Assembly (NCBI RefSeq): GCF_001447785.1
Contig: NW_015161415.1
Coordinates: forward strand, 208,266 to 272,265
From: Gekko japonicus
Lineage: Eukaryota
DNA length: 64,000 nt
Reading direction: 5' to 3'
Part shown: piece by piece, positions 27,990 through 58,391 of the stretch
Layout: every line of letters starts with the position of its first letter
Numbering within the stretch: the stretch's first letter is position 1
Notes under the pieces: generated by a model
The model's database searches: none
Seen by the model: the letters and a program-made list of their open reading frames with translations, nothing else
What the model was told of the DNA's origin: nothing
Translations under genes and position numbers: made by a program

Positions 27990-30900
27990 CCTCATCAACC
28001 TCTCCTGCCCTTGGGACAAAACCCAGCCCCCTAATTTACCACAGAGCTGGGTGATCTAAAAAGGGCTGGCAGCTATCTAGAATGGTGCTGGCAGAGAAAT
28101 CATACTGAATCTAACAGATGATGCTATAGAGCTCACTGTAAGACCTATGAAACAGTGGTGATGGCAGCAAAGAAAGGTTACTTCACTACTACTATAGCAT
28201 CAGTTAGCCCACGTTCATCCCAATTGTTCAAGGTAGCTTAGCATTTGTTGATGCCTAAATTTTAGCCTCTATTGTCCCAAAAACGGATAATTAGCTGTGA
28301 TACTTTTGCCAAGTGTTTTGCTGATTAAATATTGAAAATACGCTCTGATCTGGATGTCAGTTATAACACTGGTAACCAGAAGAAAGGCCTAATTCACTGC
28401 TCAGGCTATTTATGGATCATTTTGACCCAGATCCCATGACGGATGTAGACAAGGTCCCTGCATCTGGCGAAGCCAGTCCTTGAACCCTGGATCCTTGCCC
28501 ATCCTGGCTGCGAAAAATCATGTAAGAACTGCATCAACAACTTCTTAGCATCTCTCCTTATATATAATTCTGTTCTGGTCATGGACTCCCCTGAACATTC
28601 CAACACGCTTCCAAATCAGTTGGCTCCGTGATCTGTCATTCAGAGGGTCTCCCTATCCACTGGTTGCATTGCCTGAGTCCTGCCTCCAACATTCTAAACA
28701 GTTTGCTGTTCCTCTCCCCCCCCATAGCCAGTCAGAACACAGATAATTTGCATATGTGACCTGATTGACCTTTGCCTCAGAACACAGAGGTCATTTGCAT
28801 ATGCGGCCTCATTGGCCTTTGCCTCTAATATTCTAAATAGTTTGCTGTTGCTGTTCTGAGGTAAAATACATTTCCCCTAAGTGCCTGTTGGGAGAAACCA
28901 TTGTTGCTATTTTCTAGGTGAGGGCTGAAGATCACTCAGAATTACAACTGCTTTCCAGATGGCAGAGATCAGTTCCCCTGGAGAAAATGGTGGACTCTGT
29001 GTCCTTATAACCAGCTGAGATGGCCCCTGTATGACAGCCAATGTGACGTAGCAGTCAGGGCTTCAAAGCACAGTAGAGGCTGCAGGTGGGGGGGTGGAAA
29101 GCTGAAGAGTGAGGGGGAAATAAAGGTAGGTTGATGATTGGCTGGGAAGGAGATAGAGTTGCCAACTCCAGGTGGGAAATTCCTGGAGATTTGAGGGATG
29201 GAGCCTGGAGAGGGTGAGGTTTCAGGAGGGGTGGGACCTCAGACATGTACAATGCCATAGATTCCACCCTCCAAACCAAACAGTTCCTCCTGGGGAACCA
29301 TTGTTGCCAATCTCCAGGTGGGGGCTGGATATGGAAAGCTGAAGTCAGAGGGGCAGATCAAGGTAGATTGATGGTTGGCTGGGAAGGAGATAGGGTTGCC
29401 AACTCCAGGTTGGGAAATTCCTGGAGATTTGAGGGGTGGAGCCTGGAGAGGGTAGGGGTTGAGGAGGGGTGGGACCTCACACAGGTACAATACCATAGAC
29501 TCCACCCTCCAAACCAGCTATTCCCTCCTGGTGAACTATTGTTGCCAATCTCCAGGTGAGGGCTGGAGATCACTCAAAATTAAAACTTTTCTTCAGGTAG
29601 CAGAGATCAGTTCCTCTGGAGAAAATGGTGGACTTGGTGTCATTATACCCTGCTGAGGTCACCACAGCAAATTGACACTGAGTGCTCGAGGCCGGGGCAC
29701 CCGCCCAGAGCCTCTTTCTAGAGCTCATTGTATTTATTTCCACAATGAGCCTTATTTCTAGTCTATTAAATCAGTCAGTAATGCAAGGCACCTTCCCTTG
29801 GTCACTGAAAGAGGCAGTTAGCCATCCGCTACTGTAAAAACCATCCCTACAGAAAAATGATGTGGCGAATTATTAACCAGTCTCTAATCTATCCTTTCTG
29901 GGGAAAGTGACAGAGAGCAGTAGCAGGCCAACTCCAAGTCTTCTTGGGTATCTCATCTGCTCTAGGAGCTTTTCAGTCTGGCTTCATGCCAAGCTATGAG
30001 ACAGACCTCCATCTGAGTGTAGACAAAGGCCAACCCTCTCTGTTGCTCTTATTGGATTTATCTGCAGCCTTTGATACAGTAGATCATAATATCTTGTTGA
30101 GGCACAGGAAGGCAGAAGTAGATATCAGGGGATGTGCATTGAACTGGTTCAAATCATTCCCTCATGATTCAGACTCAAACGGTATCTATTGGAAACCAGT
30201 TCTCTTCAGTGTTGGACCTATTTTGTGGAGTTCCACATGACACGATTCTATCCCCATGCTTTTCAATCTCTATGTTAAGCCCTTAGAAGAAATCCTTCAT
30301 AGTTTTGGGGCTGGTTGCCATCAATATGCTGACAAGAGTCAGCTCTATATATCCTTATCCAAAACCCTGGTGGTGCAGAAGAGGTCCTGAATTGCTGCCT
30401 GGCCATGGTAGTTAACTGGCTAAGAGTGAACAAATTGAAACTAAACCCTGAAAAGACAGAGGGAACACTGGCTGGGAAAGAGGAGGTCTTGACCCACATT
30501 GTTCTTCCCACTTTTGATGGAGTTCAACTGACCCTTGCTGACTCAGTTCAAAGCCTTGGGGCTATACTGGATCCAGCTTTATTACCCCTGGAGCAAGTTC
30601 ATCCAGCTGCAAAAATGACTTCTACCAACTCAGCCTAGTCCATAAGATGGCCCCTTACCTTGATACACCTGATCTGGCCACCTGGATCCATGTCACAGTA
30701 ACACTGAGACTAGACTACTGTAAGGCAGTATATATTGGTTTCCTCTCAAAATCAGCTTGGAAACTCCAACTGGTCCAGAATGCTGCATCTCAGCTATTAG
30801 CAGAAGCTAGATGGAGCATGCATACAACTCCCATCCTGCAGACACTCCATTGGCTCCCCAATTTTTACCAGGTTCTATTGAAAGTATCACTTCTCACATA

Positions 30901-31110
30901 CTTCGCCCTTCATGGCCTTGTCCCATCTTATTTGTGGGACAACCTCTCTCCCTTTGCTCCACCACATCACTTTAATTGATGTCAGCAGAAACTTCTGCAG
31001 GTGCCTACCTGCAAATGGACAAAACCAACAACTGCCCATACATGTGCTTTCTCCATTGTGGCTCCTGCCTTGTGGAATGGCCTGCCTGAGAAGGTCAGGA
31101 AGGCTCCCAA
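27990..31110 (+). mobile_element. Degenerate L2-type LINE, interrupted by a Helitron
   Basis: LDPCPSWL, LLDLSAAFDTVDH, NKLKLNPEKTE, RLDYCKA and LQLVQNAA motifs. Confidence 0.88.
28551..29761 (+). mobile_element. Non-autonomous Helitron inserted in an L2 LINE
   Basis: A|TCTCTCCTTATATATAA ... GCTCATTGT-ATTTATTTCC-ACAATGAGC hairpin, TTATTTCTAG|T. No TSD; removing it rejoins L2 reverse transcriptase sequence. Confidence 0.85.
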
Positions 31111-31549
31111 TCATAGAATCATAGTTACTCTTCCCTTCCTCATGGCAAGCCCCCTATCCTCTTTTCTTCTCAGCCATTCTCCTTCTCAGACGCCTTTTTA
31201 TCTGCCTTCCATCTTCAGCTATATTTATTCTTTATTTACTTCACATATACTCCACCTTTCTTCACAGTTGGGACCAAATCAGCTTACATCATTCTCTTTT
31301 ATCCTCATAACAATCCTGTGAGGTATGTTAGGCTGAAACTATGGGAATGGCCCAAGGTCACCTAGTGAACTTCCATGGCAGATCGGTGATTTGAACATGT
31401 GTCTTCTAGACTCTATTCTGAATCTCTAATTGCTATACCACACTGGCTGTTATAGGGTGGCTGCTGCTGAACAGAAGCAAGCAAGCCAGGTGGTAGCCCA
31501 GTGGTTGATTCTTGGCTTGGCCCAGATGAGACCTCCCTCAAATGCCAAA

Positions 31550-31891
31550 ACAGTTCTAGAAAGGGCCCTGCCCCCTCCCTTAGCTTTTATGGAAAGAAAC
31601 CAAGCCTGGAATGCTGGCAAACTGTTGTGATTGCCTAGCAATGGGCACTGAGGGCATCCATTTTTACAGGTGCTCCATTTATCATTTTAACCACCCAATG
31701 TATTTTTTTTTATATTTCACAGTTCTAGAAAGGGCCCTGCCCCCTCCCTTAGCTTTTATGGAAAGAAACCAAGCCTGGAATGCTGGCAAACTGTTGTGAT
31801 TGCCTAGCAATGGGCACTGAGGGCATCCATTTTTACAGGTGCTCCATTTATCATTTTAACCACCCAATGTATTTTTTTAATATATATTTCA
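31550..31891. repeat. 169-bp near-perfect tandem duplication
   Basis: The unit starting ACAGTTCTAGAAAGGGCCC occurs at 31550 and 31719. Confidence 0.95.
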
Positions 31892-33002
31892 GATTTTTCT
31901 GCAAACATGGGGTGTTTTCAGGTTGTAGAAAGATCTGTATTGTTCATTCACAGGGCCAATCTCTGGTTTAAAGAATCCTCAGATCTGGTTGGGTTGACAA
32001 TCAGAATATACAAGTGAGGGACGGGCAAGGACTTGTGGGGGACATTTCATTTTCCCCTCCCCCACTATTTCCTCTTTCCTTTACCTGAAAGCCCCCTTAG
32101 CCTCTCTCCTTTTTCTGCCTCATTCTTTCTTTCACAGCTGTGTCTACCTGTATCTCTTTCACCTGTATCTATCTGTACCTCCTCCCAGTCTTCAGTTTTT
32201 CCTCTGGTAGCCTCTTCTAGGGAAAAATCTGGCCAAATTGCACAGTGCCAGCTACCAGTCCAGGCCCAGCTGCACAGTGGGGAAATTCTTGGACTCGCAA
32301 GAGGCACCTCAGCTTCCCTATCTCCCTCTCACACTATTTCTTCTTTCCCTCCTCCTGGCAGCTGCCATATTCTCACCTTTCCCTNNNNNNNNNNNNNNNN
32401 NNNNNNNNNNNNTTCCCTACTCCTTTCTCTCCTTCCCTCCCATCTACCAACCTACATTTTATACTCCTTCCCCATTTTTAGCAATATTGATACTTATTTG
32501 CTACATTTATACCCTGCCTTTCTCCACAATGAGGACCCAAAGCAACTTACATCATTCTCTTCCCCTCTAGTTTATCCTCACAACGACCCTATGAGGCAGG
32601 TTAGGCTGCGATTGTGTGACTGGCCCAAAGTGATGCAGTGAGCTTCCACATCAGAGTAAGCATTCAAACTGGGATCCCACAGAGCCTAATCTGACCCTTT
32701 GACCACAAAACCACACTGGCTTTCATCTAGCAGCTACTGTTGAGCAGCAGTCTTGGTAGCTGGGCGTGAGTGAGTCATGGAACTCACATGGTATCAAGTT
32801 GCCCAGTGGTTGCTTCCAGGCCTGGCCCCAATGAGTTCTCCCTCAAAGGCCAAAAAAACACAAGGCTTCAACTGGTAATTCTATTATGGTTCTTTAGCAA
32901 CCCCCACAATGGCTACTGCAGGAGACATCTGTTTCTTAAAGGTTTGTTTGGTTGGTCTTGAATGTTCATGGCTCCAGTCTCCAAATTTGGCCATGTTGAT
33001 AA

Positions 33003-33937
33003 TCTCCCTTATAAATAAAAGCCGAATGGTAGTGGCACTTCTCTAGAACATTCCACACGCTCCAAAATCAGTTCGCTCTCTGATCTGTCTATCAGAGGGT
33101 CTCCCTATTCACTGGCTGCTTTGCCTGAGTCCTGCCTCCAACATTCTAAACATTTTGCAGTTCCTCTCCCCCCCATAGCCAGTCAGAACACAGGGGTTAT
33201 TTGCATATGCAGCCTCATTGGCCTCTGCCTCGGAACACAGAGGTCGTTTGCATATGCGACTTGATTGGCTTTTGCCTCTAACATTCTAAACAGTTTTCTG
33301 TTCTGAGGTAAAATGTGTCCAATCTCCAGGTGAGGGCTGGAGATAACTCAGAATTACAACTGCTTTCCAGATGGCAGAGATCAGAAGGGCTGGAGAAAAT
33401 GGTGGGCTCTGTATCCTTATATGCTGCTGAGGTGGCCCCGGTATGACAGCCAATGTGACGTAGCAGTCAGGGCTTCAGAGCACGGGAGAGGCTGCAGGTG
33501 TGTGTGGGGTGGAAAGCTGAAGAGTGAGGGGGAAATAAAGGTAGGTTGATGATTGGCTGGGCAGGAGATAGGGTTGCCAACTCCAGGTGGGAAATTCCTG
33601 GAGATGTGAGGGATGGAGCCTGGAGAGGGTGAGGTTTCAGGAGGCGTGGGACCTCGGACAGATACAAAGCCATAGACTCCACCCTCCAAACCAACTATTC
33701 CCTTCTGGGGAACCATTGTTGCCAATCTCCAGGTGAGGGCTGGAGATCACTCAAAATTACAACTGTTCTTTAGGTAGCAGGGATCAGTTCCTCTGGAGAC
33801 ACTGTGGACTCAGTGTCATCATACCCCGTTGAGGTCGCCGCAGCGAATTGACACTGAGTGTCCAAGGCCGGGGCACCCGCCCAGAGCCTCTTTATAGAGG
33901 CCATTGTATTTATTTCCACAATGGGCCTTTTTCCTAG
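33003..33937 (+). mobile_element. Non-autonomous Helitron, same family as 28551-29761
   Basis: A|TCTCCCTTATAAATAAAAGC ... hairpin, TTTTTCCTAG|T. Internal sequence is colinear with 28551-29761 with one fewer internal repeat unit. Confidence 0.85.
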
Positions 33938-34149
33938 TTAGATATATTAATAACTAGGAAAAAGGCCCGTTGTGGAAATAAATGTTATGGTAGCTTCCAT
34001 TTACTGTCTATATTCAGTGTGAAATATCACTCAATACACATCAAAAAGTTCTAATATAAGCTTTTATTGAACCATAAAGGCTTGATCATTGCTATTATTG
34101 AACAATACATTAATACCTGTAATGTGTTTTTTAATCCCCAATGTAAAAG

Positions 34150-34240
34150 GAAAACAATGGTATGATCATTTTCCATGAAAATGAACTACAAGTCCAGAGA
34201 GATGAAGAAGCACCTGAAGCGTCACCAACAAAAGATACAG
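34150..34240 (+). CDS. OGN: Osteoglycin coding exon 2
   Basis: ENNGMIIFHENELQVQRDEEAPEASPTKDT. Acceptor aatgtaaaAG, donor G|GTAAGT; 91 nt bridges phase 0 to phase 1. Not listed in this frame in the ORF track. Confidence 0.88.
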
Positions 34241-34629
34241 GTAAGTTTTCACCATATGACAATACCATACTTAAATAGAGAAAACAATGTCTAAAAATGC
34301 AACATGGTATACACACAGCATACATACATAACTCACAGGACAATTAGTTATTTATTTTGAGGAACCAGCAACTGCTACAGGAGAGCAGCAAAGTGCAGTG
34401 ATTTCTCAGTCAATGTCCCCTCCACTGTCTTTTTACCTATGTCTGACACCACTTGCCAGAAAAACAAGGACAGTTGGTCATTATTCTGCAATAGAAATCA
34501 GGAACTCAGATGATGCTGAGTTCAAAAGATACTGTGTCAGACCATAGGCTTCTGGCTCAGACAAGACAAAAATGGCTATTCAGCCTTTGAAAATATAAAA
34601 GCCAATGATTAATCAGACATCCCCCTACT

Positions 34630-36306
34630 CTAGCTGAACGGAAGAGATTTGCCTTACTTTATGCTGATGACAGTTTTGTTATCCAGAACCCCTGTTGGCC
34701 TTAGAAGGACATTGAAGGCATTCAGTCACTATAGTAACACGAACAACCTAGAGATTAATTACCAAAAGACTAAAATCATGTATTTTGGTAAGAGACCTAA
34801 AGTTAGGGCTTGGAGCATCAATGGCCATAAAATTGAGGAAATCAAATCAGTCAATCCTAAAAGAAATCAACCCTGACTGTTCCCTGGAAGGCCAGATCCT
34901 GAAGTTGAAGCTCAAATACTTTAGCCACCAAATGAGAAGGGAGCACTCACTGGAGAAGACCCTGATGCTGGGAAAGATTGAAGGTCAAAGAAGAAGGGGA
35001 CGGCAAAGGATGAGATGGTTAGACAGTGTCATCAATGCAACGAACATGAAATTGAGCAAGCTTCAGAGGACAGCAGAAGACAGGAGGGCCTGGCGTGATC
35101 TGGTCCATGGGGACGCGAAGAGTCAGACTCGACTGTGCGACTGAACAACAACAACAAAAATGAGTTTTAAATATTTGGGTGTGACGATCCAGTCTTCTGG
35201 GGCGAGGAAGGCCCATCACGATTACATGGCCAATATAGGTCAAAAATCGGTACAGGCTATTCTAAAATCCTTCTATAAAAATGGTGGGCAATATATTGCA
35301 GCAGCCCTCAGATTATATCAATCCAAAACAGTCTCTCAACTTCTGTATGGGATGATGTTAGGCCCACCATCTTCATTTTTTGCCCCATTAGAAAGAACTC
35401 AATCGAAATTTTTAAGAGCAGTATTTCGATTCCCCAGATGTGTATTGAATGCAAGCCTGTGCCTAGATTCCGGTATGATTAAATCAGAGGCTAGGATAAG
35501 CCTCACATCTATTAATCTATGGCTTAAACTAAACCATTCCTCCCAAGACCTTACATCATTAATGCCCTGGAATGGCTTTTGATCCACTTGGTTAAAGACA
35601 GTCTGTCACAAACTGAATATGCTAGGCATCTCCCCAGAGTTTCTCTTTAAAATGCCCTTAGGTCAAGCAAAGGCCCTAGTCAAGCAAAGGATATTGGATA
35701 CTGAAAGGCAGGGAAACATCAGCAGAGTTTCAAATTTTCTGGCATCAAAGAACACTAGATACATTGTAATTCCAGCAGCCTACTTATCCCTGCTAGAGGT
35801 CCCATCCCACCGCAGGGCTTACTCTATGGCTAGATGGAATATACTCCCCTCTGCGGTAGTGGAGGGACATTATAGGAGGATCCCATTAGCAGAGAGGGTT
35901 TGCCCGTGTGGAGCACGGAAGGTCGAGACAAATGAGCATATCTTGCTTCACTGTTGTTTCTACCAGGAAATCCTCTTGAAGATTATTGCACCCTTGCTTG
36001 GGATGTTTTCTGCCTGCTCTGAATCTGAAATTACGAGGAAGTTCCTTTCAGACACAAATCCTCAGCTCACACTCCCCTGTGCAAGATTTCTTGCAGCATC
36101 ATTCAGAATTCGCAGGGAATTAACACAGAATGTAGCTGAATCATAAAATGTAGATGCTTTGTTTAATCTGTTCTGTGATTTTAAGAATGCATAGGCCACT
36201 CAGTAATTTTAAATACTGTGTATTTCCTAAAACTTATCAGATTCATGTACATTGTTGTAACTGATCTTGTGCTGGTCACGAACCATAATAATAAATTTGA
36301 TTTGAT
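34630..36306 (+). mobile_element. 5'-truncated LINE ORF2, RTEX-like
   Basis: YADD-like motif at about 34660, KTKIM, FKYLGV, LLYG and C-terminal CPC...E..EH...C; ends AATAAA plus (TTTGA)n. Frameshifted. Clade assignment tentative. Confidence 0.7.
34841..35157 (+). mobile_element. BovB 3' fragment nested in an older LINE
   Basis: SNQSILKEINPDCSLEGQILKLKLKYF...LEKTLMLGKIEGQRRRGRQRMRWLD; (CAA)n tail. Confidence 0.92.
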
Positions 36307-36758
36307 TAATCAGACCCTTTCTCATCACTAATCACGCCACACAGATCTTTGATAACACATAGATTGCAAGAAAAATAATGTAAGGCTGATATGATGTTAA
36401 AATAGCTGGCCACTAATTTGACGTGATAAGTAAGGTAAGAGTCCACAGAAGTAAAACTGGGTGGTATCACCCCTAGACAGCAGATAACCCCTGCCATTAG
36501 CAAGCTCCCATCAAAAGATTATAACCATCTTTCCTTAGATATGACTACCATTTTTTCCTTGCTGTTTTCTGTTTTATCAGTTTTCCTCATTATCATATTG
36601 AAAGCTACTTGAACACAAGATGTTGAACTGAATTCAAAATCCTATAAAGTATTATAATAGTGTTTCATAAATGTGTTTGATTGAATGGAACTAACAGGCA
36701 TCTTTGAGGGTATCAAAGAGAACAACAGAATGACTGCATATTCTAATACACACACATA

Positions 36759-37442
36759 TCTCTCCTTATATATAAAAGAGTTTTGGTGTCCCTCCTGCAC
36801 CCGCTCCTGCAGCCTTTTGCTCTCGCCCCTGCCACTCTGAAGGATCCCCTGGCTGCACTGGCTGGCTCCCTTGCCTCCGTCCTGCCCACAGAGGTGTCAA
36901 GCCTGCACAGAGGTGGCGAGCCGGCCAGCAGTGTCTCTGGCTCACTGTGCTCTGAGCCACCCAAGGGGACGGGCACTTTGGTGGCCAGAGGGTGAGCAGG
37001 CCTACTGGGAGAGGTGGGGAAGAGGCGCAAGAGCCCACACATGTTCAGAAATGCCACTGTTAAGGCGGGGGCAGGGCAGCAACTGCTGCTGTGGCAAGAG
37101 ACTGCCCCGCCGCCAGCAGCCCTGTCGTCGTCGTCCTGGGCAGCCGAGGCGGCTCTGACACCGCTCCACTTTGTGCCCTGCTGGCATCACCAGCGCCACC
37201 GCCGAACACACCAAGAGGCCTCCCTGATGCAGCCCCACCACCACGCCAAGACCCTCCTCCTGTCCCACCCCAGCAGCGGGAGCTGGGATGCAGGTGCCGG
37301 TGGAGCAGCTGTGCTCTACCCACCGCTGGGCCTGGGGGACGAGGGTGCCGCCGCCCCTTCTTCTCCCAAGGGGGGGGGGCTGGCAGGCGGCGGCCCAGCC
37401 AGAGCTCGTTACATTTGTCTCCGCAATGGGCCTTCTTCCTAG
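36759..37442 (+). mobile_element. Non-autonomous Helitron with unrelated GC-rich cargo
   Basis: A|TCTCTCCTTATATATAAAAGAG ... GCAATGGGCCTTCTTCCTAG|T. Termini shared with the other copies, interior different. Confidence 0.8.
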
Positions 37443-37561
37443 TATATATATAAAATGCATCCTTGGAATATATTGTTTTCACTTCCTAAAAGTTCACCTC
37501 AGACTCACTGTCATTTTTAAAAATTTTATGCTTACATAGAAAATTGATTATATGCTTTCAG

Positions 37562-37720
37562 ATTTGCCTACTTGTTTGCTGTGCGTTTGTTTAATTGGTT
37601 CAGTTTACTGTGAAGAAACAGATATTGAAAGTGTTCCAGCTCTGCCAAAGGAAACAGGCTACCTTTATGCACGATTCAACAAAATCAAGAAGATCAAAAC
37701 CTCCGACTTTGCTGACATTC
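37562..37720 (+). CDS. OGN: Osteoglycin coding exon 3 (class III Cys cluster)
   Basis: [19 protein letters not shown] (CX2CXCX6C) ... [13 protein letters not shown] at 37560-37561; donor C|GTAAGT. Confidence 0.96.
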
Positions 37721-38017
37721 GTAAGTACATATTTAGAATTAACTGAGTAATACTGAACATTTGGGTGAACAATATATATTGGTTATTTTCTATAAAATAA
37801 ATTGCATATCATTCTAAATGTTTTATTTGCAATTACTCTTTAAACAATTTCCATGCAAGCTTCCAAGATGATTATAAAATAACAGAATGCGTAATGTTAA
37901 CGTCACAGTTCTAGGGTTGCTAGGCAACCAGCATGACACTGAAGGGGACGGGACATGGGCATATGACCAATGCTGCAATATAACTTCCAGGAAAACTTGG
38001 AAGTGATATCACAACTC

Positions 38018-38297: not shown

Positions 38298-39333
38298 TAG
38301 GAATTGGCCAACACTCTATTGTAAAGCCATACAATTTGAGACAATTGCTAGAGCTGATGGCCATGACAATTGCTAGCAGCTGATGGCCATTTTTTAGAAA
38401 AAATAATTTTTCTCCTGCCAACATTCAGAATGGTGGCTGGAAACACCAGATGGAGGTAGAGGATTCCCTAGGGCTGGCAACTTTACACAGGTCAATTATA
38501 CAGATAACCTTTTCTTATAAAAAATTCATTGTGCAATGTGAACCAAGGAAGAAATTAAAGGAAACAGGGTTGGAAAATGTAGTAATGAACCGCTTTTAAA
38601 ACTTTTCATTTGTTTAATTGTAAATATTAAAAAATATTTGAACAATTCAAGTGTGGCTAACACATCAAAATACCATCTAAAAACAAAGAATGCTATTTTT
38701 TCAAAACTGTTTGATTCATATGCAAATTCAAGCAGATTAAATCAAGTAAATTACTACATGGCTTAGGACAGGGTATCTGAAAGACCATCTTCTCCTATAC
38801 GTTCCTACATGGGAATTAAAACCATGGGGAGATGCCCTTCTGACTAACCCACCAATTAAAGATGCTTGTTTGGTAGGTACATGAGTGAGGGCCTTTTCTG
38901 TGGCAGCCCCACAATTATGGAACAACTTCCACAATGAGGTGCACCTCGCCCCCTCATTGCCAATCTTCAGGAAGCAGTTGAAGACAGTTTTATTTAGGAT
39001 TGCATTTTGGTATTGTTGCATTTTTTGTGTGTGTGCGCATTACCATGTCTAGAAGTCATGGCGGCTTCAGCAATTCCTACTGGGGCATGGAGGACGTTCA
39101 GAGAAGTGGCTTGATAAGCCTGTCTCTGCCTCCCAGCCCTGGTATTTTTTTTGAGGTCTCCCACCCAAATACTTGCCAGGGTCGGCCCCGCTTAGCTTCC
39201 AAGACCTGACGAGATCAGGCTTGCCTGGGCTATCCATGTCAGGGCCTTTAGGAATGCATTTTGACAGATTTAGCTTTTATATCATCAGTCTTAATTGGAG
39301 ATTTTACACTGTGATTTTTATGGGTGTTATAAT

Positions 39334-39540
39334 CAATGCTCCCTCTAAGCTGTGGAATCTTGTGAGCAAAAAATCTACTTTGTGAGCTACTGGCATTAAA
39401 GTTTTGAGGAAGCAATTTGGCGACTGCATAAATTAGTTTGCTCCGGGGACCATCCTTCCTGAGTTAAGACAAAAATGTGTTAGCCAGAGGCTTAAAAACT
39501 GTGAACTAGCTCACACTAACTCAGCTTAGAGGGAACACTG
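39334..39540 (-). mobile_element. hAT MITE family A, copy 2
   Basis: TIRs CAGTGTTCCCTCTAAGCTG; 8-bp TSD GTTATAAT. Confidence 0.9.
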
Positions 39541-39969
39541 GTTATAATTGTTTTTATTGTCTTTTTATAATTTTATTTATATTCTAAGCCACCTTAAGTC
39601 CCACAAGGAAGGTGGCTAATAAATGTTTTAAATAAATATCAATAGGTAAATTGTCTGACATGTTCAATAAAATTTACAGCCCTTGCTGAGGAAGCCAAGT
39701 TACCATAAAGTTTTCCCACCATGTAACACCATGGCAGTTTGTGCAAAGATCAGTGGGAAGGGAGAGATATGATGATCTTCATTGATACCTGGTTGTGTTT
39801 TAAAGGGGATGAGTGTACTAGGGTTGGAGACACAGGGATTTTAACCATCAACACACACTTGACAGAACCTTTTCACTGTTGGATAATCTGGACACAGCAT
39901 CTGTGTGCATGGGTGGTATGGTGTACTTGGTCAAATGCAATGGCTGTGCTGTTGACATAAGATTACAAC

Positions 39970-45198: not shown

Positions 45199-45204
45199 AA
45201 TAAA
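45199..45204 (+). terminator. Candidate OGN polyadenylation signal (another at 45770-45775)
   Basis: AATAAA hexamers 1.0 and 1.55 kb after the OGN stop. Confidence 0.3.
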
Positions 45205-48508: not shown

Positions 48509-48605
48509 CTTGAAATGGGATAGAGTACATTTCCGATATTCACACCACTCAGAAAAACAGGAGAGGCTTTTGAAAAACAGCAAAAGATTTCCACTCTCTT
48601 CAACT
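48509..48605 (-). CDS. CENPP: Centromere protein P internal exon (probably exon 5), followed by the giant intron hosting OGN and OMD
   Basis: gttttccAG|A GTT GAA...AAG|GTAGTG encodes VEESGNLLLFFKSLSCFSEWCEYRKCTLSHFK (compare recalled human AEERKDLFMFFRSLHFFVEWFEYRKRTFKHLK). 97 nt, phase 2 to 0, in frame with the previous exon. Confidence 0.93.
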
Positions 48606-49224
48606 CTGGAAAACAATGTATAAAGTTTTGGGGTAAATAATAAATCTTTCTTTGGTGCACACTTCTTTCTAGATTATACAGAATTTCTATTGGAATGAAC
48701 CTTCCGCATAATTAGATTACTGTACAATAAAATAGCATTTGGTTCTCAGAAGTGGTAACTATCAGGGCTGGATTTTTGTGGAGGATTCCATCTTGGAAGG
48801 CCTGATGAGCTTCCTTTCCCATACTACAATGCTTATATGGCCAGATTTTTAAAGGATCTACATACAGTCTCCCCAGTCATTACGCATAGGCTTCCTCTAT
48901 CAAACTCTTGCCACTGAAGAGGAAATTAGTGGAATATCAGTTATGCAGTTGGTGCACACTTTGGCTGATTGTGCCAAAAGGCCCTTGACCTCAAAATTCA
49001 ACAAGTATCTTTATTTCAGCATCTCAGTAATTACAGGATTTGTTTAAAGCTAGAATCTTCTGCTCAGCACAACAAATGAGGGCCTCAGAGTTAAAAGCAC
49101 CTCATTTATCAGACACATTTACCACAAATACCAGCAAATGCAATGCTTTCAAAATCACAACCCTACAAGTTTTATCATACCCTTCCAACAGTTCTCTCCC
49201 ATTGTTTTAGACAAGTAAGACACA

Positions 49225-49955
49225 GGTGCTCCGTTTGATCTGGTGTCGTGACGGTTCAACAACAGAAACGGATTTTATCTGCACGATCACACAGTCAACA
49301 TCTGCCTCCCATCCCCAGCCATTAGTTTCCGGCTCAAAACCACTTTAACCGGAGTATTTTGTTACCAGGTCCCAAAGTGGTGTTTTCTCAGCTCTCCCAT
49401 TTAAAACTACATTTTCCCCCTAGGTGATCGCTCCTCCGGTGTCAAACCACTTCCGGTTTAAACCCCCTCCCCGCTCGAAAGCTGCCCGAGGCTTCCGCTT
49501 TTTGCCCGCCATTTTTTTTAATGCATTGGCGGTGTGTGCATAGGAGGAGCTCTGCCACTGGATTTAGAAAACCGGCATTTAAACGGTCACTTGTTTTAGC
49601 GTTTAGATGAGTTCGGGATCTCATGGAGGCCATTTTCAGGTCAAACGTTTAAAGGAAAGTTTTTGTTGGAGGGGTTGTATTGATTTGCCCTGGTGGTTCT
49701 GCGCATGCGCCATGGTAGTTTTGCCCCCCCCATTCTACGGATGAGTGCCTATGTGCATGCACAAACTGAGAAAAAAAATTAAAAAGCCGTCGACACACGC
49801 TCCTGCGCATCAGTAGTGTAGATAGTGGGGGGCGCTGCGACTGCACAGTAAAGTGGGATAAGGGAGGTAAGTGTGATCACAATTATCCAGCAAATATAAT
49901 CCGGTCAGAACTGGAGCAGTTTAACCCGCTCTCAGCATGCCGTCTGACCGCACCC
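49225..49955. mobile_element. CpG-rich MITE-like element related to the 54883 element
   Basis: Right end CGTCTGACCGCACCC (reverse complement GGGTGCGGTCAGACG) resembles the 54883 TIR; left end degraded; abrupt CpG-rich composition. Confidence 0.5.
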
Positions 49956-50947
49956 AGAAACACACATTAAAACATGTGTATAAAGATATAAGTAACTACA
50001 ATTTGGTCTGCGCTTGGCCATACCACTGTTCTTCCTTTGATTAAAACCAATTTGTTTTTCAATTTCTTTATGTTCCTTTCATTAAAATTCCATTTGCTAA
50101 GTTCCACTGCTGGTCAGTCAGAATAAGCCTAGTCGCCAAGGCAAGGTATTACTAAATTAATAGCACTGCAACTTCACATATGAAAAAACCTGTATAAAAT
50201 ACAACCCATGCCATTTTTACCAAGTTTAATAAGCAATTTTTCAGAAATTTATTAAAATGATTTTATTCTGCCTCATAGCTACAGGTTATTGAGCTATTAT
50301 ACAAGAATAATATTATTATATAATCCAATAAAACCATCATATTCAGTAAAACTACCAGCAACAAGTAATAAAAGCAGAGACAGTCAACATTTTAAAAACA
50401 TTTTGGATTAGAAACATATAGGAACACTACACTATAAATCAACATATAATTTAGCAGCAGGTTACAAGCACAAGCAGTTAATCAAAAACAAAAAGCAAAG
50501 CCATAAACAAAGAGGGGGGGGGATGGATGACTAATCACGAAATGCCAGGGAAAATACAAGTTCTCCCAGCTCTTATCAAAGTTTTAGATCCCAGAGAGGC
50601 AGAGACATGACAACAGGGTGAAAGCCTTGTGGCCATCTCCAGTCAATGGGTCTCTGATACGGCTTAGTACTTCAACAGGTTCATACAGGAGGAGGTGATC
50701 CTGCACTGAAATCCCAGGCTTTAAAGGTTAGCATCAGCACTCTGAATTCAGTTTGACAACTAAGTCACAGTTATGGCAGCTTTTTCAGAACTGTTGAGGT
50801 ACATCAACCCTGCTGCAGGTTTCTGCACTAATAGAAGTTTTGGAACAGTTTTTAAAGGTAGACAGAAATCAATCGTAGATGTTATGAGTGTGGTAGAACA
50901 ACCCCTCATTCCCCATGTTACCACAATGAGAACATGTATCACTGCGA

Positions 50948-51153
50948 CAGTGTTCCCTCTAAGCTGAGTTAGTGTGAGCTAGCTCACAGTTTTTTAGCCT
51001 CCGGTTCACACATTTTTGTCTTAGCTCAGGAAGGATGGTTCCAGAGCAAACTAATTTATGCAGTAGCCAAATCGCTCACTCACAACTTTAATGCCAGTAA
51101 CTCTCAAAGCAGAATTTTTGCTCGCAAGACTCCACAGCTTAGAGGGAGCATTG
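50948..51153 (+). mobile_element. hAT MITE family A, copy 3
   Basis: Same TIRs and interior; TSD only partly preserved (GCGA). Confidence 0.88.
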
Positions 51154-52620
51154 GCGACAATATGTTGTTTTTACAAGAAGCAGTTAAATGAATAAACAAA
51201 GATGGTTAAAAAGACACATCCATCTACTGAACACAGTACTCTCTTTCAAAAAGTTATTGCTGAGTTTGTATCCAAGCAGATACATCACACACACAAACAA
51301 CTTATTCAGCTGTAGTAGCAACTGCTATCACCATCCTCCACTCACACCCCACTGATGCGAAATATGTAAGTTCTGCAGTGCTCAATTGAATCCAGATGTG
51401 GACACTACTGATAGACTTAAATCTCAGATGATTACTAGACAAAAGCCAAGTTAAAACTCCTCACAGTACCAAAAAGCAACTTTGGGAAGAATTGTGTAAT
51501 GAGTAGGTTTATTGTGATAATGAAATGCAGGCATATCTAACATGAATTCTCAAAGGGCCATTTCTGAAAATATTTGCACCTTTTACACATTACTTTGGAT
51601 GTGGTAAAGTCATCATGAAATAAACCTATCACATGAATTCTATCAGGTGACAGCTGCCAGAATACAAATGTTTCAGTCTCAGCAGGTACCACATAAAAAT
51701 GAACACATTGGCCTGGATCCATCTACACTAAGAAAATGTCAAAGCACTTGCATTTTCTTAAGGGGCAGCAATTTTTGCTGATTTCTACCCTCTCCCAACC
51801 CACTGCAGATAACCATTATATTGTTCCTGAAGGTCAACTAATCTCCAGGAACAAAATGGGGAGGGGAGCTCAGTGTCCTTCAGTGGGAAGGGGAAACCAG
51901 CAAAAATTGAAGCCCTTCCTTAAGAAAATTTAAGAGCACTTCCTTTTTTTAACTGAATGGTAAAATAAATGTCCTATCACCTTAAAATGAAACAGTAAAT
52001 CATTTTGCATAAACCAGTATTAGCTACCACTTCTCTGAGAGTACGTCTTAAATTTGACAGCTATAACAATGCGTTAGAATGTTTCCAATCTTTTTTATAG
52101 GTGACAGGAACGCATCAGTCATTCTGCACAGCTACTGGCAGAAAACAAACCATCAGTTTGGCTATGAGATATTAGAGCTGAAACAGAACTGAAGGAACCA
52201 ATAGTCAGAAGAGAAGAGCATGGGAGTAGAGCAAGCAATCTGGCATCTTACACTGTAATGATGCCGGACTTTATTTTGCTTACAGTATTGAAACATTATC
52301 TTTGTTTTTATCCTCTTTGTGTAATGGGAGCATGCACTTCGGATTTCCATTTGATTTGATCTGAAAGGATGGGAATAATTATTCCAGGAAAACAATATCT
52401 AAAAAACAAAATTCAAGAACCCTGCCTTCTCTCAACAAATGAATAAAAGCTTATATATATCAAGATGGGAGTAGAAAAGAGAAAGAGTCCAGCAGCACCT
52501 TATAAGCTAACAAAATTTGTGGTAGAGTATGAGCTTTCGTGAATCACTGCTCTTTTCTTCCGATACTGAAGAAATGAGCCAGTGACTCACGAAATTTCAT
52601 CCCCTACCACAAGTTTTGTT

Positions 52621-53058
52621 TGTCTTTTTTATGTGTGGGTATTTTGGAGTGTGTGTGTTTGGAGGCTTGGAAAGCATGGTGACTTCGGGCGACCCTTACT
52701 GGGGGATCGGCTTGATAGCCTTTCTCTGCGTTGTGAGCCCCAATATTCCTTGGAGGTCTCCCTTCCAAGTAGTTACCAGCAGTGTTCCCTTTAAGCTGAG
52801 TTAGTGTGAGCTAGCTCACAGTTTTTTAGCCTCCGGCTCACACATTTTTGTCTCAGCTCAGGAAGGATGGCTCCAGAGCAAGCTAATTCATGCAGTAGCC
52901 AAATCACTCACTCACAACTTTAATGCCAGCAGCTCACAAAGTAGAATTTTTGCTCACAAGACTCCACAGCTTAGCGGGAACATTGGTTACCAGGGTTGGC
53001 CCTGATTAGCTTCCAAGTTCTGATGAGACTGGGCTGGCCTGAGCTATCCAGATGAGGG
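52621..53058 (-). mobile_element. 5S rRNA-derived SINE (others: about 4640-4850 +, 5835-6020 -, 39020-39245 -)
   Basis: Minus strand GGAAGCTAATCAGGG...TACTTGGAAGGGAGACC resembles the 5S internal promoter, followed by a non-5S tail. Confidence 0.7.
52780..52985 (+). mobile_element. hAT MITE family A, copy 4 (inside a 5S-derived SINE)
   Basis: Same TIRs; 8-bp TSD GTTACCAG. Confidence 0.9.
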
Positions 53059-54453
53059 CAAATATTGTTAGTCTTTAAGGTGCTACTGGACTCTTACTCT
53101 TTTCTACAGTTTATATATAAATGGTAGTCCAACCAAAATTCACAAACAAGGAAAGGGAGAATATTAATTCAACTCCATTTTTTTCCTTTCCTTATGTAGT
53201 CATATCGACATCTCTCTCTCAAAGAGACAGCAGTAATTTCAGGTACTTCCCATCCTCAACATCACAAAAGGGTAGGGGAGGAAATCTCTGAGTCTTCAGC
53301 CTAAGAAGGCATCTCTTTCACTAGGCACCTCTTTCACTCCTGCAATTACCTCGAATTTCACCAGGACCATTTGTGAGGCTGTTTTATTTTAAACGCACCT
53401 CCCCTCATGCCTTCACACTCCACATGCATGTGTTGAGTTCTCCCAAAAAGAGCTCTGTTTCATAATGATCCCACCAACACACACAGCCTCTTCTCACCTT
53501 AAAGACCCTGACATATGTGGTCCAGCTAACATTCGGAAAAGACAGCTCCACTTCCTACTCTTTAGTATCTTTCACAAGTCATCATTTCTTACAGCATCTT
53601 TCATCTATCCCTTCCTTGGCCCCTTTTTCTTTCATTCTTTCTTGGAGACCATGTGGCAATGTTTGCTGCATACTGCAACCACTACCATTTCTCATGTCTT
53701 TAGCTGAAAGCCTCTAGTTAATAATATGAATAAACAATAAACTACAAGAGGAGGAGGAGGAGGAGGAAGAATAGAAATTAGTTTTGTAACCCACTCTTCA
53801 CTACCCGAAGGAGTCTCAGAGCAGCTTACAATCGTCTTCCCTTCCTCTCCCAACAACAGACACCTTGTGAGGTAGGTGGGGATGAGAGAGTTCTGAGAGA
53901 ATTGTGACTGATCCAAGGTCACCCAGCTGGATTCATGTGGAGGAGTGGGGAATCAAACCTGGTTCTCCAGATTAGAGTCCGCTGCTCTTAACCACTACAC
54001 CAAACTATCATTTGCTGTCCAGGGCTTTTTTTCTGAGGGAACGTGCGGACACGGAGCTCTGGAACCTCTTTGCCAAAATTCTTTTTAAAATGTTTAAAAG
54101 TACATGAGTTTTCAGTATACAGATTGAAAACTTCATTTCCCTCTTGAGAGTTCCGACACCTTTAAAAAAAACCAAAAAAACACAACCCTGGTTGTATCAT
54201 TAACTGTATATCACTGCCAGGGATAAAGGGCCCCAGAGCAGAAGATCCCAAAGTCTGCTGTATCATTAACTGTATATTGTATATATTATATACAATATCC
54301 AGCTTTCTTTTACCAATTACCACAAAATGTCTATTAAACTGCTATTAACCTCCTTTCAGTATTCTCCAGTTATTAGAGGTTAGCTTTTTGTTCAAGGTAG
54401 AGTATCCATGAATGGTCCAACTAAAGGCTAAAATGGGAGACCTATGACTGGAT

Positions 54454-54659
54454 CAGTGTTCCCTCTAAGCTGAGTTAGTGTGAGCTAGCTCACAGTTTTT
54501 TAGCCTCCGGTTCACAATTTTTTCTCTTAGCTCAGGAAGGATGGCTCCAGAGCAAACTAATCTATGCAGTAGCCAAATTGCTTGCTCACAGCTTTAATGC
54601 CACAGAATCACACAGTGGAATTATTGCTCACAAGACTCCACCGCTTAGAGGGAGCATTG
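54454..54659 (+). mobile_element. hAT MITE family A, copy 5
   Basis: Same TIRs; 8-bp TSD GACTGGAT. Confidence 0.9.
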
Positions 54660-54819
54660 GACTGGATATCTTTTTTCTTACTAAAAACAGCCATTTAGGG
54701 CTGCCAATTTGATTGGGAATCAAGCCTTGTCGGAAGAGGAATGAGGTGGGGGTGAGGGATTACATATGGGAGAAATTAAGTGAGCAGAAAGCTACCAACG
54801 TGTTGTACTGCGATGTCGA

Positions 54820-55798
54820 AGACCCAGACAGGACACGATAGAGGTTTATAAAAGTATACAGGGGGCAAAGAAAGCAGACAGAGGCTGCGGTCACACGGAA
54901 CAGAAGCCACACAAGTGAGACGGAAAACAGGCGGAGTTTCCAGGCGCGATCTCACCAGCACATCTGGGAAGCGTAGCACTCCCGTGGCTCAACCGAGGCT
55001 TCCAGCCGAAACTGCGTGGCAAAAAACTAGTACCTCAGAGGTACTAGTTTCCGGAAACTGCGGGGCAAGGGCGGGCGTCTGATTGCGTTTCCGGTGGCAT
55101 CCGGCGCCCGCCCATGTCCCCTTGCAAATAAGGTGTGTTTTTTTTGTCCAAGTCTCTGTGGATGCGCACGCGCACCCAACGGAGCATGCGCATTTGTCAT
55201 GTACACACAAAAACAAAACACTTTGCCGCGGCGCGCGCTTCTTCGTTGCGCGCCGGCTTGTCCTGTGATCGGCACCTCTCCCTTGCCATGGAACCTCCAC
55301 GGTACCTCCACAGGAGGTCTGATCGTGTAACTGCGCAGTAGTTTGCCCCAGGGCAAACAGCCACGCTTCTCCCCCGCAGTTTCCTGCCCGTGTGACCGGG
55401 GCCAGAGAGAACTTCTTTGTCCTCTCCAAAATACCCGCACTCAGGGTCACTCAATGAAGTTGATGGTAAGTAGATTCAAGAAGGACAAAAGGAAATCCTA
55501 CTTTACTCAAAAAGTGCCAGAGGATGGCCACAGGCATATATGGCTTTAAAAGGGCAACAGACAGGTATATGGATAGGTCTATCAGTGGCTACTAGCCACA
55601 GTGACAAAAGGAAATCTTGACATGCAGAGACAAGGAATCCCTGAATACCAGTGTCAGGAGGCAACATCAGGTAAAGTCCTCAGCCTCTGTATGGTCTTGC
55701 TGGCTCTCCAGGGTAACTGGTAGGCCACTGTGTGAGATAGGATGCTGGCTGGCTGGACTATTGGTCTGATCCAGCAAGGCTCTTCTTATGTTATTATG
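54820..55798 (+). mobile_element. CR1 LINE 3' portion, interrupted by a MITE
   Basis: GATAGAGGTTTATAAAA...CAGGGTCACTCAATGAAG...; ends CTTCTTATGTTATTATG. Confidence 0.75.
54883..55403. mobile_element. CpG-rich MITE, PIF/Harbinger-like, inserted in CR1
   Basis: TIR GGCTGCGGTCACACGG / CCGTGTGACCGGGGCC; 3-bp AGA on both sides; CR1 sequence resumes on both flanks. Confidence 0.7.
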
Positions 55799-56554
55799 CT
55801 GTGCCTGGTAGACCAGCTCCAGAAGTTGGTGCTGGGACAAAACTGCTCAGCCCCATGGCATTTAAAATATGGGGTCCTATTTTTAACCTGCTTTGACTGG
55901 CTCACCGACTGCAGTCCTCCCTTGAGAGGCAGGACTTGGCCACAATTATTCATGCTCTGACTGAATCTAGGTTGGACTACTGCAATGCATTCTACATGTG
56001 GCTGCTTTTGATGAGTGTTCAAAATCTTCAACTAATTCATGATATAGAGGTTAGGCTGCTATCAGTTTCAAGTTACGGGGATTACATCTCAACAGCTTTA
56101 AAAGCTCTCCACTGGCTGCCAGTCAGCTTCAATTCTATAACATAAAAAGCTCTACATAGTTTGAGATCACTTTTGTAAAAAACTGTTCTCCCAAATGAAC
56201 CTGCCTGCTGGTTAAGGCCATCATCAGAAATCCCACTCTGTGTTCTACTAACAGAGACAAGATGACTAAACACCAGAGAAAGCATTTTTTCAGTAGTGGT
56301 GCCTAGGCTGTAGAATTCACTTCCTAAAGAGGCTTACCTGGTGCCAAGTGTATGATCTTATACGCACTAGGCAAAGCCTTCATTCTGCTCACACCTTTTA
56401 AGGGCCTTATTTTCTTAAATGTTTTAAAGCTGCTCTACTGTTATGTCATTAGTATTTTATAAGATTTTATGTTGCATTGTTTTTATAATATTAAAATAGG
56501 ATTAATTTTATCTGATGTTTCAATCACTTTTATGGTTATCATATTTATACAATA

Positions 56555-58391
56555 CTAGGAATAAGGTCCGCTGTGGAAATAAATACAACAAGCTCAAGAA
56601 AGAGGCTCTGGGTGGGTGACCTCAGAGTTTACCATTTTCTCCGGGGGAACTGATCTCTACCATCTAAAGAGCAGTTGTAATTCTGAGTGATCTCCAGCCC
56701 TCCCCCTGGAGATTGGCAAAAATGGTTCCCCGGGAGGAAATGGCTGGTTTGGAGGGTGGACTCTATGGCTGTGGTGGCGAACCTATGGCACGCGTGCCAG
56801 AGGTGGCACTCAGAGCCCTCTCTGTGGGCATGCGCACCGTCACCCCAGCTTCCTAGGCGGCCACCGATTGGGCAGTTTGAATGGAGGGCAGGGGCCATGC
56901 AAAGCAGACATCGAGCCAGCAGGGGAAGAGAAGCCGCCTGCGCCCCGCGACTCCCCTTCTCCTCCAAGGCGGCTGACCGCGACGAGCAGCACCAGCAGCA
57001 GCCTACAGGAGGGAGCACCTGCCCGAGTGAGTGCGCCTCTCTGCACCCCGAGCCCCGCCTGGCCGGCGCCTCGCCTCCTCCAAGCCTGCAAGCGAGTATC
57101 CCTCTCCTCCTCCTCCGTCCCGTCCTCTGCCAGCGTCAGCATCATCGTCTTCGTCCCTGGGAGGGGGGTGGGCAGCCCGGCCTCTGCCGTCTTCCCACCG
57201 CCACTCCCTCCCTCCCTCCAGCATGCAGGACTCTAGGTCAGGGGGCGAGAGCGGCTCCTCGGGGTGGGTGGGTGAAGACATGGGCATCGGCGTCGTTGTG
57301 GGAGTTGCAGGTCTTCAGGCTTGGAGGGGGGTTGAGGGGGCTTGCCATCGCCTCCTGTCTTCTGCTTGTTTCTAGCTGCTGGCATGACCAGGTGGGCGCC
57401 TGTTTTGATTCTTTCTCCTGGCTTTTCTGTTTGCCGGGGGGGCTTGGCGGGGGGGGGGGGGTGCTGGCTGCGATCGGCTCGTNNNNNNNNNNNNNNNNNN
57501 NNNNNNNNNNNNNNNNNNNNNNNNNNNNNNNNNNNNNNNNNNNNNNNNNNNNNNNNNNNNNNNNNNNNNNNNNNNNNNNNNNNNNNNNNNNNNNNNNNNN
57601 NNNNNNNNNNNNNNNNNNNNNNNNNNNNNNNNNNNNNNNNNNNNNNNNNNNNNNNNNNNNNNNNNNNNNNNNNNNNNNNNNNNNNNNNNNNNNTTATCTG
57701 CCTGTCTGTCTTCAGGTTTACATCTCCCCCCCCCCCAGCGTCTGTCTACGGAAAGGGCAGTTGTTCCCTGCAGTGGGAACCAAAGCAGCTGACAGCATTC
57801 TGCTCTCCCCCGTATGATCCTGTGAGGTATATTAAGGTTGAAAGTCTGTGAATGGTCCATAATCCCCCAGGAAGCTTTTATAACATGAACCTGGGACCTG
57901 CACACCATCCTCTGAAGCGCTCTCAGGTATGTATCTGTGGCAGTAATGGGGTGACTGCTGGCACCTTTTCCTATCGTTTTTTGCCTTGTGGTATTCTGTT
58001 TGTGGTGTGATCTGTCTTTTTTGTGGTGTGGCATGGTTGTGTTATTGGGTTTGTTTCTTTTGAAGGGGAAGTGATGTGTTGTGAGTGAGGACATATTTTA
58101 CCTCAGAATACACCAGGTCGCATATGCAACTGAGAGTTCCAACCAACTGTCTCATGGAGGAGGGGGGGAGTTTGAGGTGCGGAATGAAGTCCAATCAGTT
58201 TCCATATGCAAATGACCTTGAAACGCTGGCCCAATCAGAGAAGAGTGGCCTAGGCTGCAGTGGGTGGGAGAAAACTCAGGCAGCATAGCCAGTAGATAGA
58301 GACACCTTGTGATTGACACATCACGGAGCCAACTGATTTTGGAGTGAATGGAATCTTGCAAGACAAAAACGCTTTTATTATATAGGAGAGA
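56555..58391 (-). mobile_element. Non-autonomous Helitron (minus strand) with nested hAT-like end, GC-rich cargo and N gap 57483-57693
   Basis: Minus strand A|TCTCTCCTATATAATAAAAGCG...CCAAAATCAGTTGGCTCCGTGAT (shared with 28551) ... ATTTATTTCCACAGCGGACCTTATTCCTAG|T. Confidence 0.8.

What the first reader, a model, noticed from the sequence alone, without database searches (positions are those of the whole stretch)
28551..58391. Helitron family with conserved termini but swapped internal cargo (4 copies in 30 kb)
Seen: elements at 28551-29761, 33003-33937, 36759-37442 (+) and 56555-58391 (-) begin TCTC(T)CC(T)TATA(T/A)AT..AA. They end with a hairpin followed by TT.TT(C/T)CTAG, sit between host A and T, and lack a TSD. 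The first two are colinear. The fourth shares about 100 bp of 5' sequence and the 3' region, but has a different middle. The third shares only the extreme ends. Known: 5'-TC, 3'-hairpin-CTRR, A|T insertion and host DNA capture are hallmarks of rolling-circle Helitrons. Inference: a lineage-specific, possibly uncatalogued, non-autonomous Helitron family that shuffles sequence. From memory, the 5' end resembles the TCCTATATAATAAAAG start of bat Helitrons, which would raise a horizontal-transfer question.
Basis: partly seen in the sequence, partly recalled or inferred. Interest (0 to 1): 0.7.

Follow-up and report, generated by a model that had tools for sequence, protein, structure and literature searches.

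The report
Abundant lizard Helitron family, spaced target
These four stretches are copies of a jumping-DNA family with thousands of members in this (likely gecko) genome, sharing their ends but not their middles and landing at a spaced A|T...ATA target; they are likely copied by the known rolling-circle (Helitron) enzyme, and a recent jump from bats is unlikely.

Summary
Real, and a known kind of element. All four copies lie at the stated coordinates (A|TC...CTAG|T, no duplication); a fifth, lone 3' end faces copy 2. The 3' motif has 5,593 exact matches genome-wide and a sister end 2,780; 40 of 49 sampled 3' ends have a family 5' end upstream on the same strand. Copies 3 and 4 are absent at the same place in related organisms, and paralogous empty sites show a clean A|T join. 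Seven RepHel copies form one clade; six carry a related (60-70% over 30 bp) 3' end. Corrections: the GC-rich part of copy 4's 'cargo' is a nested hAT-type element private to that copy, and its length includes a 211-N gap; the cargo I could name is other repeats. No support for recent bat transfer: about 45-59% protein identity to Helraiser, and the clade is sister to Paroedura gecko proteins. Dfam/Repbase could not be checked.

The parts
28551..29761 (+). E1, non-autonomous Helitron copy, E1/E2 interior type with an extra 238-bp tandem unit (29095-29567); hairpin 29722-29751
33003..33937 (+). E2, non-autonomous copy of the ~935-bp subfamily; hairpin 33898-33927; interior holds pieces of a short TIR repeat
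   Evidence: mean pairwise K2P 0.074, 6 copies; 1,730 exact 5' matches
33954..33985 (-). Lone 3' end of a fifth copy, tail-to-tail with E2 across a 16-bp AT spacer that gives both ends ATA at +7; the rest likely deleted
   Evidence: run X1 holds it from 33955, contigs of organisms B and C stop aligning at 33979-33980 and run on for about 1.85 kb unlisted
36759..37442 (+). E3, copy of an older ~660-bp subfamily with a GC-rich interior of unknown origin
   Evidence: 19 of 19 other loci match over at least 616 of 684 bases; mean K2P 0.159, 6 copies; absent in organism B (record 23)
56555..58391 (-). E4, whole copy including nested element and gap
   Evidence: absent in organisms B and C (records 10 and 15)
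57694..58391 (-). E4 5' module, amplified in many Helitron copies, found with several different 5' tips
   Evidence: (2,996 candidates, 40 scored)
57483..57693 (.). 211-N assembly gap; likely hides the rest of the Helitron interior and the other end of the nested element
56771..57482 (-). Visible half of a nested ~1.4-kb TIR element of hAT type (superfamily name inferred from TIRs and 8-bp duplications), ending at a TAG-centred 8-bp target
37618..37719 (+). Host exon of a small leucine-rich proteoglycan gene; E2 and E3 likely lie in its introns (best PDB hit opticin; osteoglycin by recall)
   Evidence: E 9.1e-9

Best explanation
The four elements are protein-less copies of one large canonical Helitron lineage of this genome, likely copied in trans by its RepHel enzyme through rolling-circle (peel-and-paste) transposition. 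Shown: shared TC and hairpin-CTAG ends, thousands of dispersed copies, A|T insertion without duplication, empty sites, related RepHel elements of 8.7-10.6 kb, several amplified subfamilies of different age, and a target of A|T followed by ATA at +7/+8. Inferred from Helraiser work: the enzyme nicks at A|TC, displaces one strand, stops at the hairpin-CTAG and pastes a circle at a new site. Interiors differ for three reasons: read-through of a 3' end into neighbouring DNA or a neighbouring copy (composites seen; mechanism inferred), internal duplication and deletion (seen), and later insertion of other transposons (seen in E4). The target motif likely arises because the DNA downstream of the target nick is bound as the element's own 5' end is (both become the 5'-T side of an HUH nick), so sites that look like a 5' end are preferred (untested).
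For: Termini and chance control. Genome counts 5,593 and 2,780 for two 3' types, reversed-pattern control 0; 467 and 1,730 for two 5' types. 5' match upstream on the same strand in 25 of 30 and 15 of 19 first-listed loci, none on the other strand (the 5' library came from these loci, a hit needed two other members). A at -1 in 92% of 51 starts, T at +1 in 78 of 80 ends. No flank overlap in 22 of 33 full copies, no fixed length in the rest. Paralogous empty sites with gap 0 for 4 of 45 paired copies. Orthologous absence of E3 and E4. Hairpin: 87% of cells paired, 3 of 10 pairs changed on both sides in 7 ends, slid controls 30-49%. RepHel: PF14214 and PIF1, HUH and Y2 motifs read in the ORFs; 7 of 19 fetched loci form one clade, 6 of them with the related 3' end, 3 with a family 5' end. 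Composites: L004 has an inner and an outer 3' end, L126 a doubled 3' module; C14036 has a non-autonomous copy starting 3 bp after a RepHel copy's CTAG; inner 5' ends in two loci; hybrid 3' ends in L122 and L125. Target: ATA at +7/+8 in 66 of 80, shuffles mean 12.0, max 22 of 1,000; 5,710 of 144,827 AT sites and 1,815 of 14,056 AT-rich sites; the motif is in the empty sites.
Against: The RepHel copies' last 30 bp are only 60-70% identical to those of E1-E4, under the 80% family rule, so no RepHel copy with E1-E4's exact end was found among 19 loci examined. Apart from the ends, E1-E4 share no interior with the three full RepHel copies. The RepHel copies read are broken by stops or frameshifts, except C11350, which is open on both sides of a gap. 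Empty sites in B and C are off by 3 to 37 bases and are not base-precise; no bridging contig was listed for E1 or E2. 9 of 49 sampled 3' ends had no 5' match. E1 lacks the ATA motif at +7/+8; in the element's own start the first ATA lies at +9/+10 in 33 of 44 copies, two bases off the target spacing. No transposition was observed.
Confidence: 0.88

Rival explanations
1. The different interiors are mostly passive: deletion derivatives of longer ancestors plus later insertions of other transposons, with little Helitron-driven capture.
For: E4's GC-rich half is a private nested element: it occurs at 19 of 19 other loci without Helitron ends and in none of 24 closest relatives of E4's 5' half, 16 of them gap-free. 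Nameable cargo is other repeats. Anole non-autonomous Helitrons are described as deletion derivatives (PMC3014272).
Against: E1-E4 interiors do not match the RepHel copies; foreign repeat pieces are amplified within subfamilies; the same module occurs with different 5' tips and both 3' types; double 3' ends exist.
Confidence: 0.3
2. The family entered the genome recently by horizontal transfer from bats or a shared vector.
For: Helraiser is the best PDB hit of all three ORF pieces; the homologue tree mixes lizards, amphibians and arthropods, so older transfers in the wider clade are plausible; Helitron transfer to lizards is published (PMC2997563, PMC12001565).
Against: Identity to Helraiser about 45%, 59% and 51% in three segments (my count from the printed match lines); 519 bits against 644 for a Paroedura picta protein; the clade is sister to three P. 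picta proteins, support 1.00; published transfer cases are 80-100% identical in DNA; copies in this genome differ from each other by up to 25% in protein. Helraiser was not in the tree.
Confidence: 0.05
3. The elements are moved by a different, unfound RepHel or are relics whose partner is gone; the RepHel clade found drives only the second 3' type.
For: Exact RepHel-type end is on the second (2,780-match) group, not on E1-E4; the genome holds two further RepHel clades; 19 loci of the 34 matches were fetched.
Against: Both end types share hairpin arms and interiors and intergrade; both show the same target motif (34 of 41, 11 of 14, 21 of 25); no such end was found just downstream of the other clades' coding regions.
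Confidence: 0.15

Closest known systems
Canonical Helitrons (HLE1), bat Helibat1/Helraiser and HelibatN families (PMC4778049, PMC4224331)
   Same: 5'-TC, hairpin about 11 nt before CTAG, A|T insertion without TSD, RepHel with HUH/Y2 and PIF1 domains, many non-autonomous subfamilies with heterogeneous interiors, composite elements, AT-rich preference strongest on the 3' flank.
   Different: About 45-59% protein identity; hairpin loop of 9-10 nt; cargo identified so far is other repeats, not gene fragments (not searched systematically); a fixed-spacing ATA at +7/+8 is not stated in the passages read (the Helraiser logo figure could not be seen).
Heli1Xen1 of Xenopus, lacertid and cordylid lizards, caecilians and bichirs (PMC12001565)
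   Same: TC/CTAG ends, TA-rich start, similar hairpin arms (paper: CCCGTTA...TAACGGG; here CCCGTTG...CAACGGG in RepHel copies), up to over twenty thousand non-autonomous copies per genome.
   Different: Its members are 81-100% identical in DNA; Zootoca and Hemicordylus proteins (likely its members; not verified) are 59% or less identical to this clade; no gecko is mentioned in that paper.
Anole Helitron-1_AC / Helitron-2_AC families (PMC3014272)
   Same: Lizard Helitrons with few autonomous and many non-autonomous copies; one family carries SINE/retroelement fragments.
   Different: Described there as deletion derivatives with rare composite structure; here interiors are unrelated to the RepHel copies and mosaics are common. 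Sequences not compared.

Membership tests
Canonical Helitron (HLE1) | 5'-TC terminus | tested here: met
   4 of 4 window copies; boundary confirmed by empty sites
Canonical Helitron (HLE1) | 3' CTRR preceded by a hairpin | tested here: met
   CTAG in all; 9-10-bp stem about 11 nt upstream; decayed in E3 and E4 singly
Canonical Helitron (HLE1) | Insertion between A and T, no TSD | tested here: met
   A at -1 in 92% of 51, T at +1 in 78 of 80, gap-0 empty sites for 4 of 45 copies
Canonical Helitron (HLE1) | Dispersed, mobile (empty sites) | tested here: met
   E3; E4; E1 and E2 not bridged
Canonical Helitron (HLE1) | RepHel partner with matching ends | tested here: inconclusive
   Homologous ends on 6 of 7 clade members, but 60-70% over the last 30 bp to E1-E4; exact match only to the second 3' type
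Canonical Helitron (HLE1) | Rolling-circle transposition (circles, activity) | not testable with these tools
   inferred from Helraiser (PMC4778049, PMC5876387 passages)
One family by the 80%/30-bp rule (Yang and Bennetzen, as given in PMC4224331) | [quoted passage not shown] | tested here: met
   0.80-0.90 in 5 of 6 pairs, 0.77 for E3-E4; 5' identity 0.63-0.87, so several subfamilies
Helibat1 / recent bat transfer | [quoted passage not shown] | tested here: not met
   protein only: about 45-59%; bat terminal DNA not seen
Heli1Xen1 | 81-100% RepHel DNA identity | tested here: inconclusive
   its sequence was not at hand; likely members from Zootoca and Hemicordylus are 59% or less identical in protein
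HLE2 / Helentron | Subterminal inverted repeats and T|T insertion | tested here: not met
   A|T insertion and TC/CTAG ends; definition from PMC11417382
Existing Dfam/Repbase entry | Library match | not testable with these tools
   no repeat library on hand
hAT-type TIR element (nested in E4) | Short TIRs and 8-bp TSD | tested here: met
   both TIRs at L146 and L149 with 7/8 and 8/8 matching 8-bp flanks; in E4 only one end is visible

The most novel reading that the evidence does not exclude
A gecko-lineage Helitron clade, undescribed in print, has amplified to tens of thousands of copies over a long period, and its enzyme reads a fixed-spacing target (A|T-N5-6-ATA) that mimics its own 5' end; this draws new insertions next to older copies and so drives the mosaic interiors, and one RepHel copy (G000:C11350) is still intact across an assembly gap, giving a natural vertebrate Helitron enzyme with a testable target rule.
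Probability: 0.25. Interest if true: 0.62.

Novelty: new member of a known kind. Interest (0 to 1): 0.36.

Why it matters
Helitron targeting is usually given as 'AT in AT-rich DNA'. A sharp spaced motif in 66 of 80 natural insertions gives a concrete, testable rule for how RepHel picks targets and a possible reason for tandem and composite copies. The family also adds a large vertebrate Helitron amplification outside bats, in a group whose repeats are poorly classified (PMC5381603). The element type and cargo shuffling are well known; this is catalogue work plus one mechanistic lead.

Tried and rejected
Recent bat transfer: rejected on protein identity and tree. E4's GC-rich half as captured cargo: rejected. 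TA target duplication: rejected by an empty site. A 328-bp pairing of the fifth 3' end with a TC start near 34281 was rejected: it would span a host exon, and B and C align there. Four copies in 30 kb as a special cluster: strict matches average one per 445 kb, 3 lie in this window; the local excess is real, but the strict pattern misses 2 of 5 here and a 2.49-Gb genome has about 39,000 such windows, so no special cause is claimed. The 3' motif is absent from metagenome contigs and has one viral match without the hairpin's left arm, taken as chance. No bridging contig for E1 or E2 was listed; this is no evidence either way. Summed contig depth suggests the E2 5' part is more abundant in organism A than in B and C, but the tool says depth is no copy number. 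The origin of E3's interior was not found: outside its own subfamily only one short hit at one other Helitron locus in 1.12 Mb. Literature searches for gecko or squamate Helitrons and for the target motif found no description; most subscription papers, the Helraiser structure paper, the Helraiser supplement and all figures were not available, and these may bear on the motif's novelty. Look-ups of earlier findings by words and by sequence gave nothing.
Full report
Observation. The 3' motif occurs five times in the window against 0.00 expected. The fifth is a lone 32-bp end at 33954-33985 on the minus strand, tail-to-tail with E2. E1 and E2 are colinear at 84-88%, E1 having an extra 238-bp unit. 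E4 shares 84 bp near its start and about 220 bp at its end with E2, and E3 shares only the ends. The hairpins of E3 and E4 barely fold singly, but the stem is kept across 80 ends and shows changes on both sides in 3 of 10 pairs among 7 aligned ends.

Genome-wide family. The window-type 3' motif has 5,593 exact matches in G000 and a sister end 2,780, reversed controls 0; two 5' types have 467 and 1,730. These are lower bounds. I took the first 30 and first 19 listed 3' ends with 1.5-6 kb upstream: 25 of 30 and 15 of 19 have a family 5' match on the same strand, none on the other. The base before the start is A in 92% of 51 starts, the base after the end T in 78 of 80. Flank overlap is 0 in 22 of 33 full copies and 1-6 bp without a fixed length in 11. 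Four of 45 paired copies sit in repeats whose empty forms lie in the 1.12 Mb fetched; all joins have gap 0.

Empty sites in relatives. One contig of organism B runs from 36754 to 37449 with 6 letters between, where an empty site predicts 10 in a CA/TA microsatellite (record 23): E3 is absent. Contigs of B and C join E4's flanks, 3 and 37 letters shorter than the exact empty form (records 10 and 15): E4 is absent. Run X1 (organism A) holds junctions of E3 and E4. No bridging contig was listed for E1 or E2. Family sequence is present in B and C, so the lineage predates their split from A while these two insertions are likely younger.

The enzyme. PF14214 gave 34 matches; I fetched 19 loci. Seven form one clade (75-93% protein identity), two other clades are 32-45% identical to it (4 loci dropped for short coverage, 39 of 120 listed homologues used). 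Six of the seven have the sister 3' end after the helicase and three a family 5' end, giving elements of 10.6, 10.6 and 8.7 kb. HUH, Y2 and PIF1 motifs are present. The hairpin arms are shared with E1-E4, but the last 30 bp are only 60-70% identical, so the partner is a close relative rather than an exact match. C15658 is split into three frames; C11350 is open on both sides of a gap.

Cargo. Three things make the interiors differ. First, true subfamilies: E3 matches 19 of 19 other top loci over at least 616 of 684 bases (430 candidates, 40 scored) and is older (K2P 0.159) than the E2 type (0.074; 6 copies each); E4's first 698 bp have 2,996 candidates and occur with several 5' tips. Second, mosaics and composites: double 3' ends (L004), doubled modules (L126), a copy with an E3-like start and an E1-like end (L106), inner 5' ends, hybrid ends, and a non-autonomous copy 3 bp behind a RepHel copy. 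This fits the read-through model shown for Helraiser (PMC4778049, passages) and the composite HelibatN539 (PMC4224331, passages). Third, later insertion: E4's GC-rich half occurs at 19 of 19 other loci without Helitron ends, stops at a TIR seen exactly in 10 of the 19, belongs to a 1.4-kb element with 8-bp duplications at two loci, and is missing from all 24 closest relatives of E4's 5' half, 8 of which have gaps. The E1/E2 interior holds rearranged pieces of a ~200-bp TIR repeat also found outside family copies. Gene capture was not searched systematically.

Target motif. ATA begins at +7 or +8 after the cut in 66 of 80 ends (34 of 41, 11 of 14, 21 of 25 by end type); shuffles give 12.0, at most 22; background is 3.9% of all AT sites and 12.9% of AT-rich ones. 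A few of the 80 are not independent (one duplicated locus, the two tail-to-tail ends). The motif is host DNA: it stands in the empty sites (at +8, +9 or +10 there) and in organism B's contig after E3. The element's own start has its first ATA at +9/+10 in 33 of 44 copies. Helraiser's AT-rich preference is reported as strongest on the 3' flank, so this may be a sharper form of a known bias; the logo is a figure I could not see. The explanation by shared binding of donor start and target is my inference.

Horizontal transfer. Helraiser is the best solved relative, at about 45%, 59% and 51% identity in three segments by my count from the printed alignments. The best identity in the protein collection is 54% to a Paroedura picta protein, 644 bits against 519, and the clade is sister to three P. 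picta proteins with support 1.00 (Helraiser not in the tree). Published transfers are 80-100% identical in DNA (PMC2997563, parts 1-2 of the text; PMC12001565, abstract, Results part 2 and passages). The latter calls a TA-rich start a general feature of canonical Helitrons. A recent bat link is thus unsupported; inheritance within geckos is likely; older transfer in the wider clade is not excluded. That G000 is a gecko is inferred from this tree and from recalled likeness of its repeats.

What is in print. Searches found no description of gecko Helitrons or of the spaced motif. Seen as passages only: PMC3014272, PMC4778049, PMC5876387 (plus part 1 of one supplement, its oligo table unreadable), PMC13286980, PMC4224331, PMC9409754, PMC5381603, PMC10379679, PMC11417382. 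Dfam and Repbase could not be searched; automatic libraries may already hold these sequences (recalled). Two earlier notes from this scan describe other Helitron copies in this genome; unchecked.

Verdict. A real, abundant family of a known kind, probably without a published description. The target motif is the one lead worth a specialist's look. Interest 0.36.

Noticed in passing
window 33938-33985: E2 and a lone inverted 3' end face each other across a 16-bp AT spacer that gives both ATA at +7; organisms B and C seem to hold about 1.85 kb here that the window lacks, which would fit deletion of an unstable long inverted repeat.
   Followed up: partly
G000:C11350 (L082 3519-8664, minus strand): RepHel coding region open on both sides of a 341-N gap; the locus also carries a 2.5-kb duplicate of its 3' part (95%).
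   Followed up: partly
L077, L092, L094, L096, L097 and loci C15808, C8342: Two further RepHel clades in this genome, 32-45% identical to the one studied; one has its own TC start, and a copy of the studied family (L127) sits in sequence also found at loci of that clade.
   Followed up: partly
3' ends of all copies, e.g. window 33894-33937: A second CTAG stands just before the hairpin's left arm in 61 of 80 ends, so the terminal CTAG can pair with it and extend the stem.
   Followed up: no
L123 and L172: Two different subfamilies inserted at the same base of the same host repeat at different loci, as a specific target would predict.
   Followed up: partly
window 31550-31878: 169-bp tandem duplication with 100% identity; run X1's contig ends at 31710. 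Possibly an assembly artefact.
   Followed up: no
window 34606-36302: A 1.7-kb LINE-like stretch with a nested repeat is absent from organism C's contig (record 27).
   Followed up: no
window 34181-34240 and 37618-37719: Exons of a small leucine-rich proteoglycan gene (opticin best PDB hit; osteoglycin by recall) hosting E2 and E3.
   Followed up: partly
window 8142-8375, 39330-39547, 50937-51170, 52769-53002, 54443-54676: Five copies of another ~234-bp dispersed repeat, three within 4 kb.
   Followed up: no
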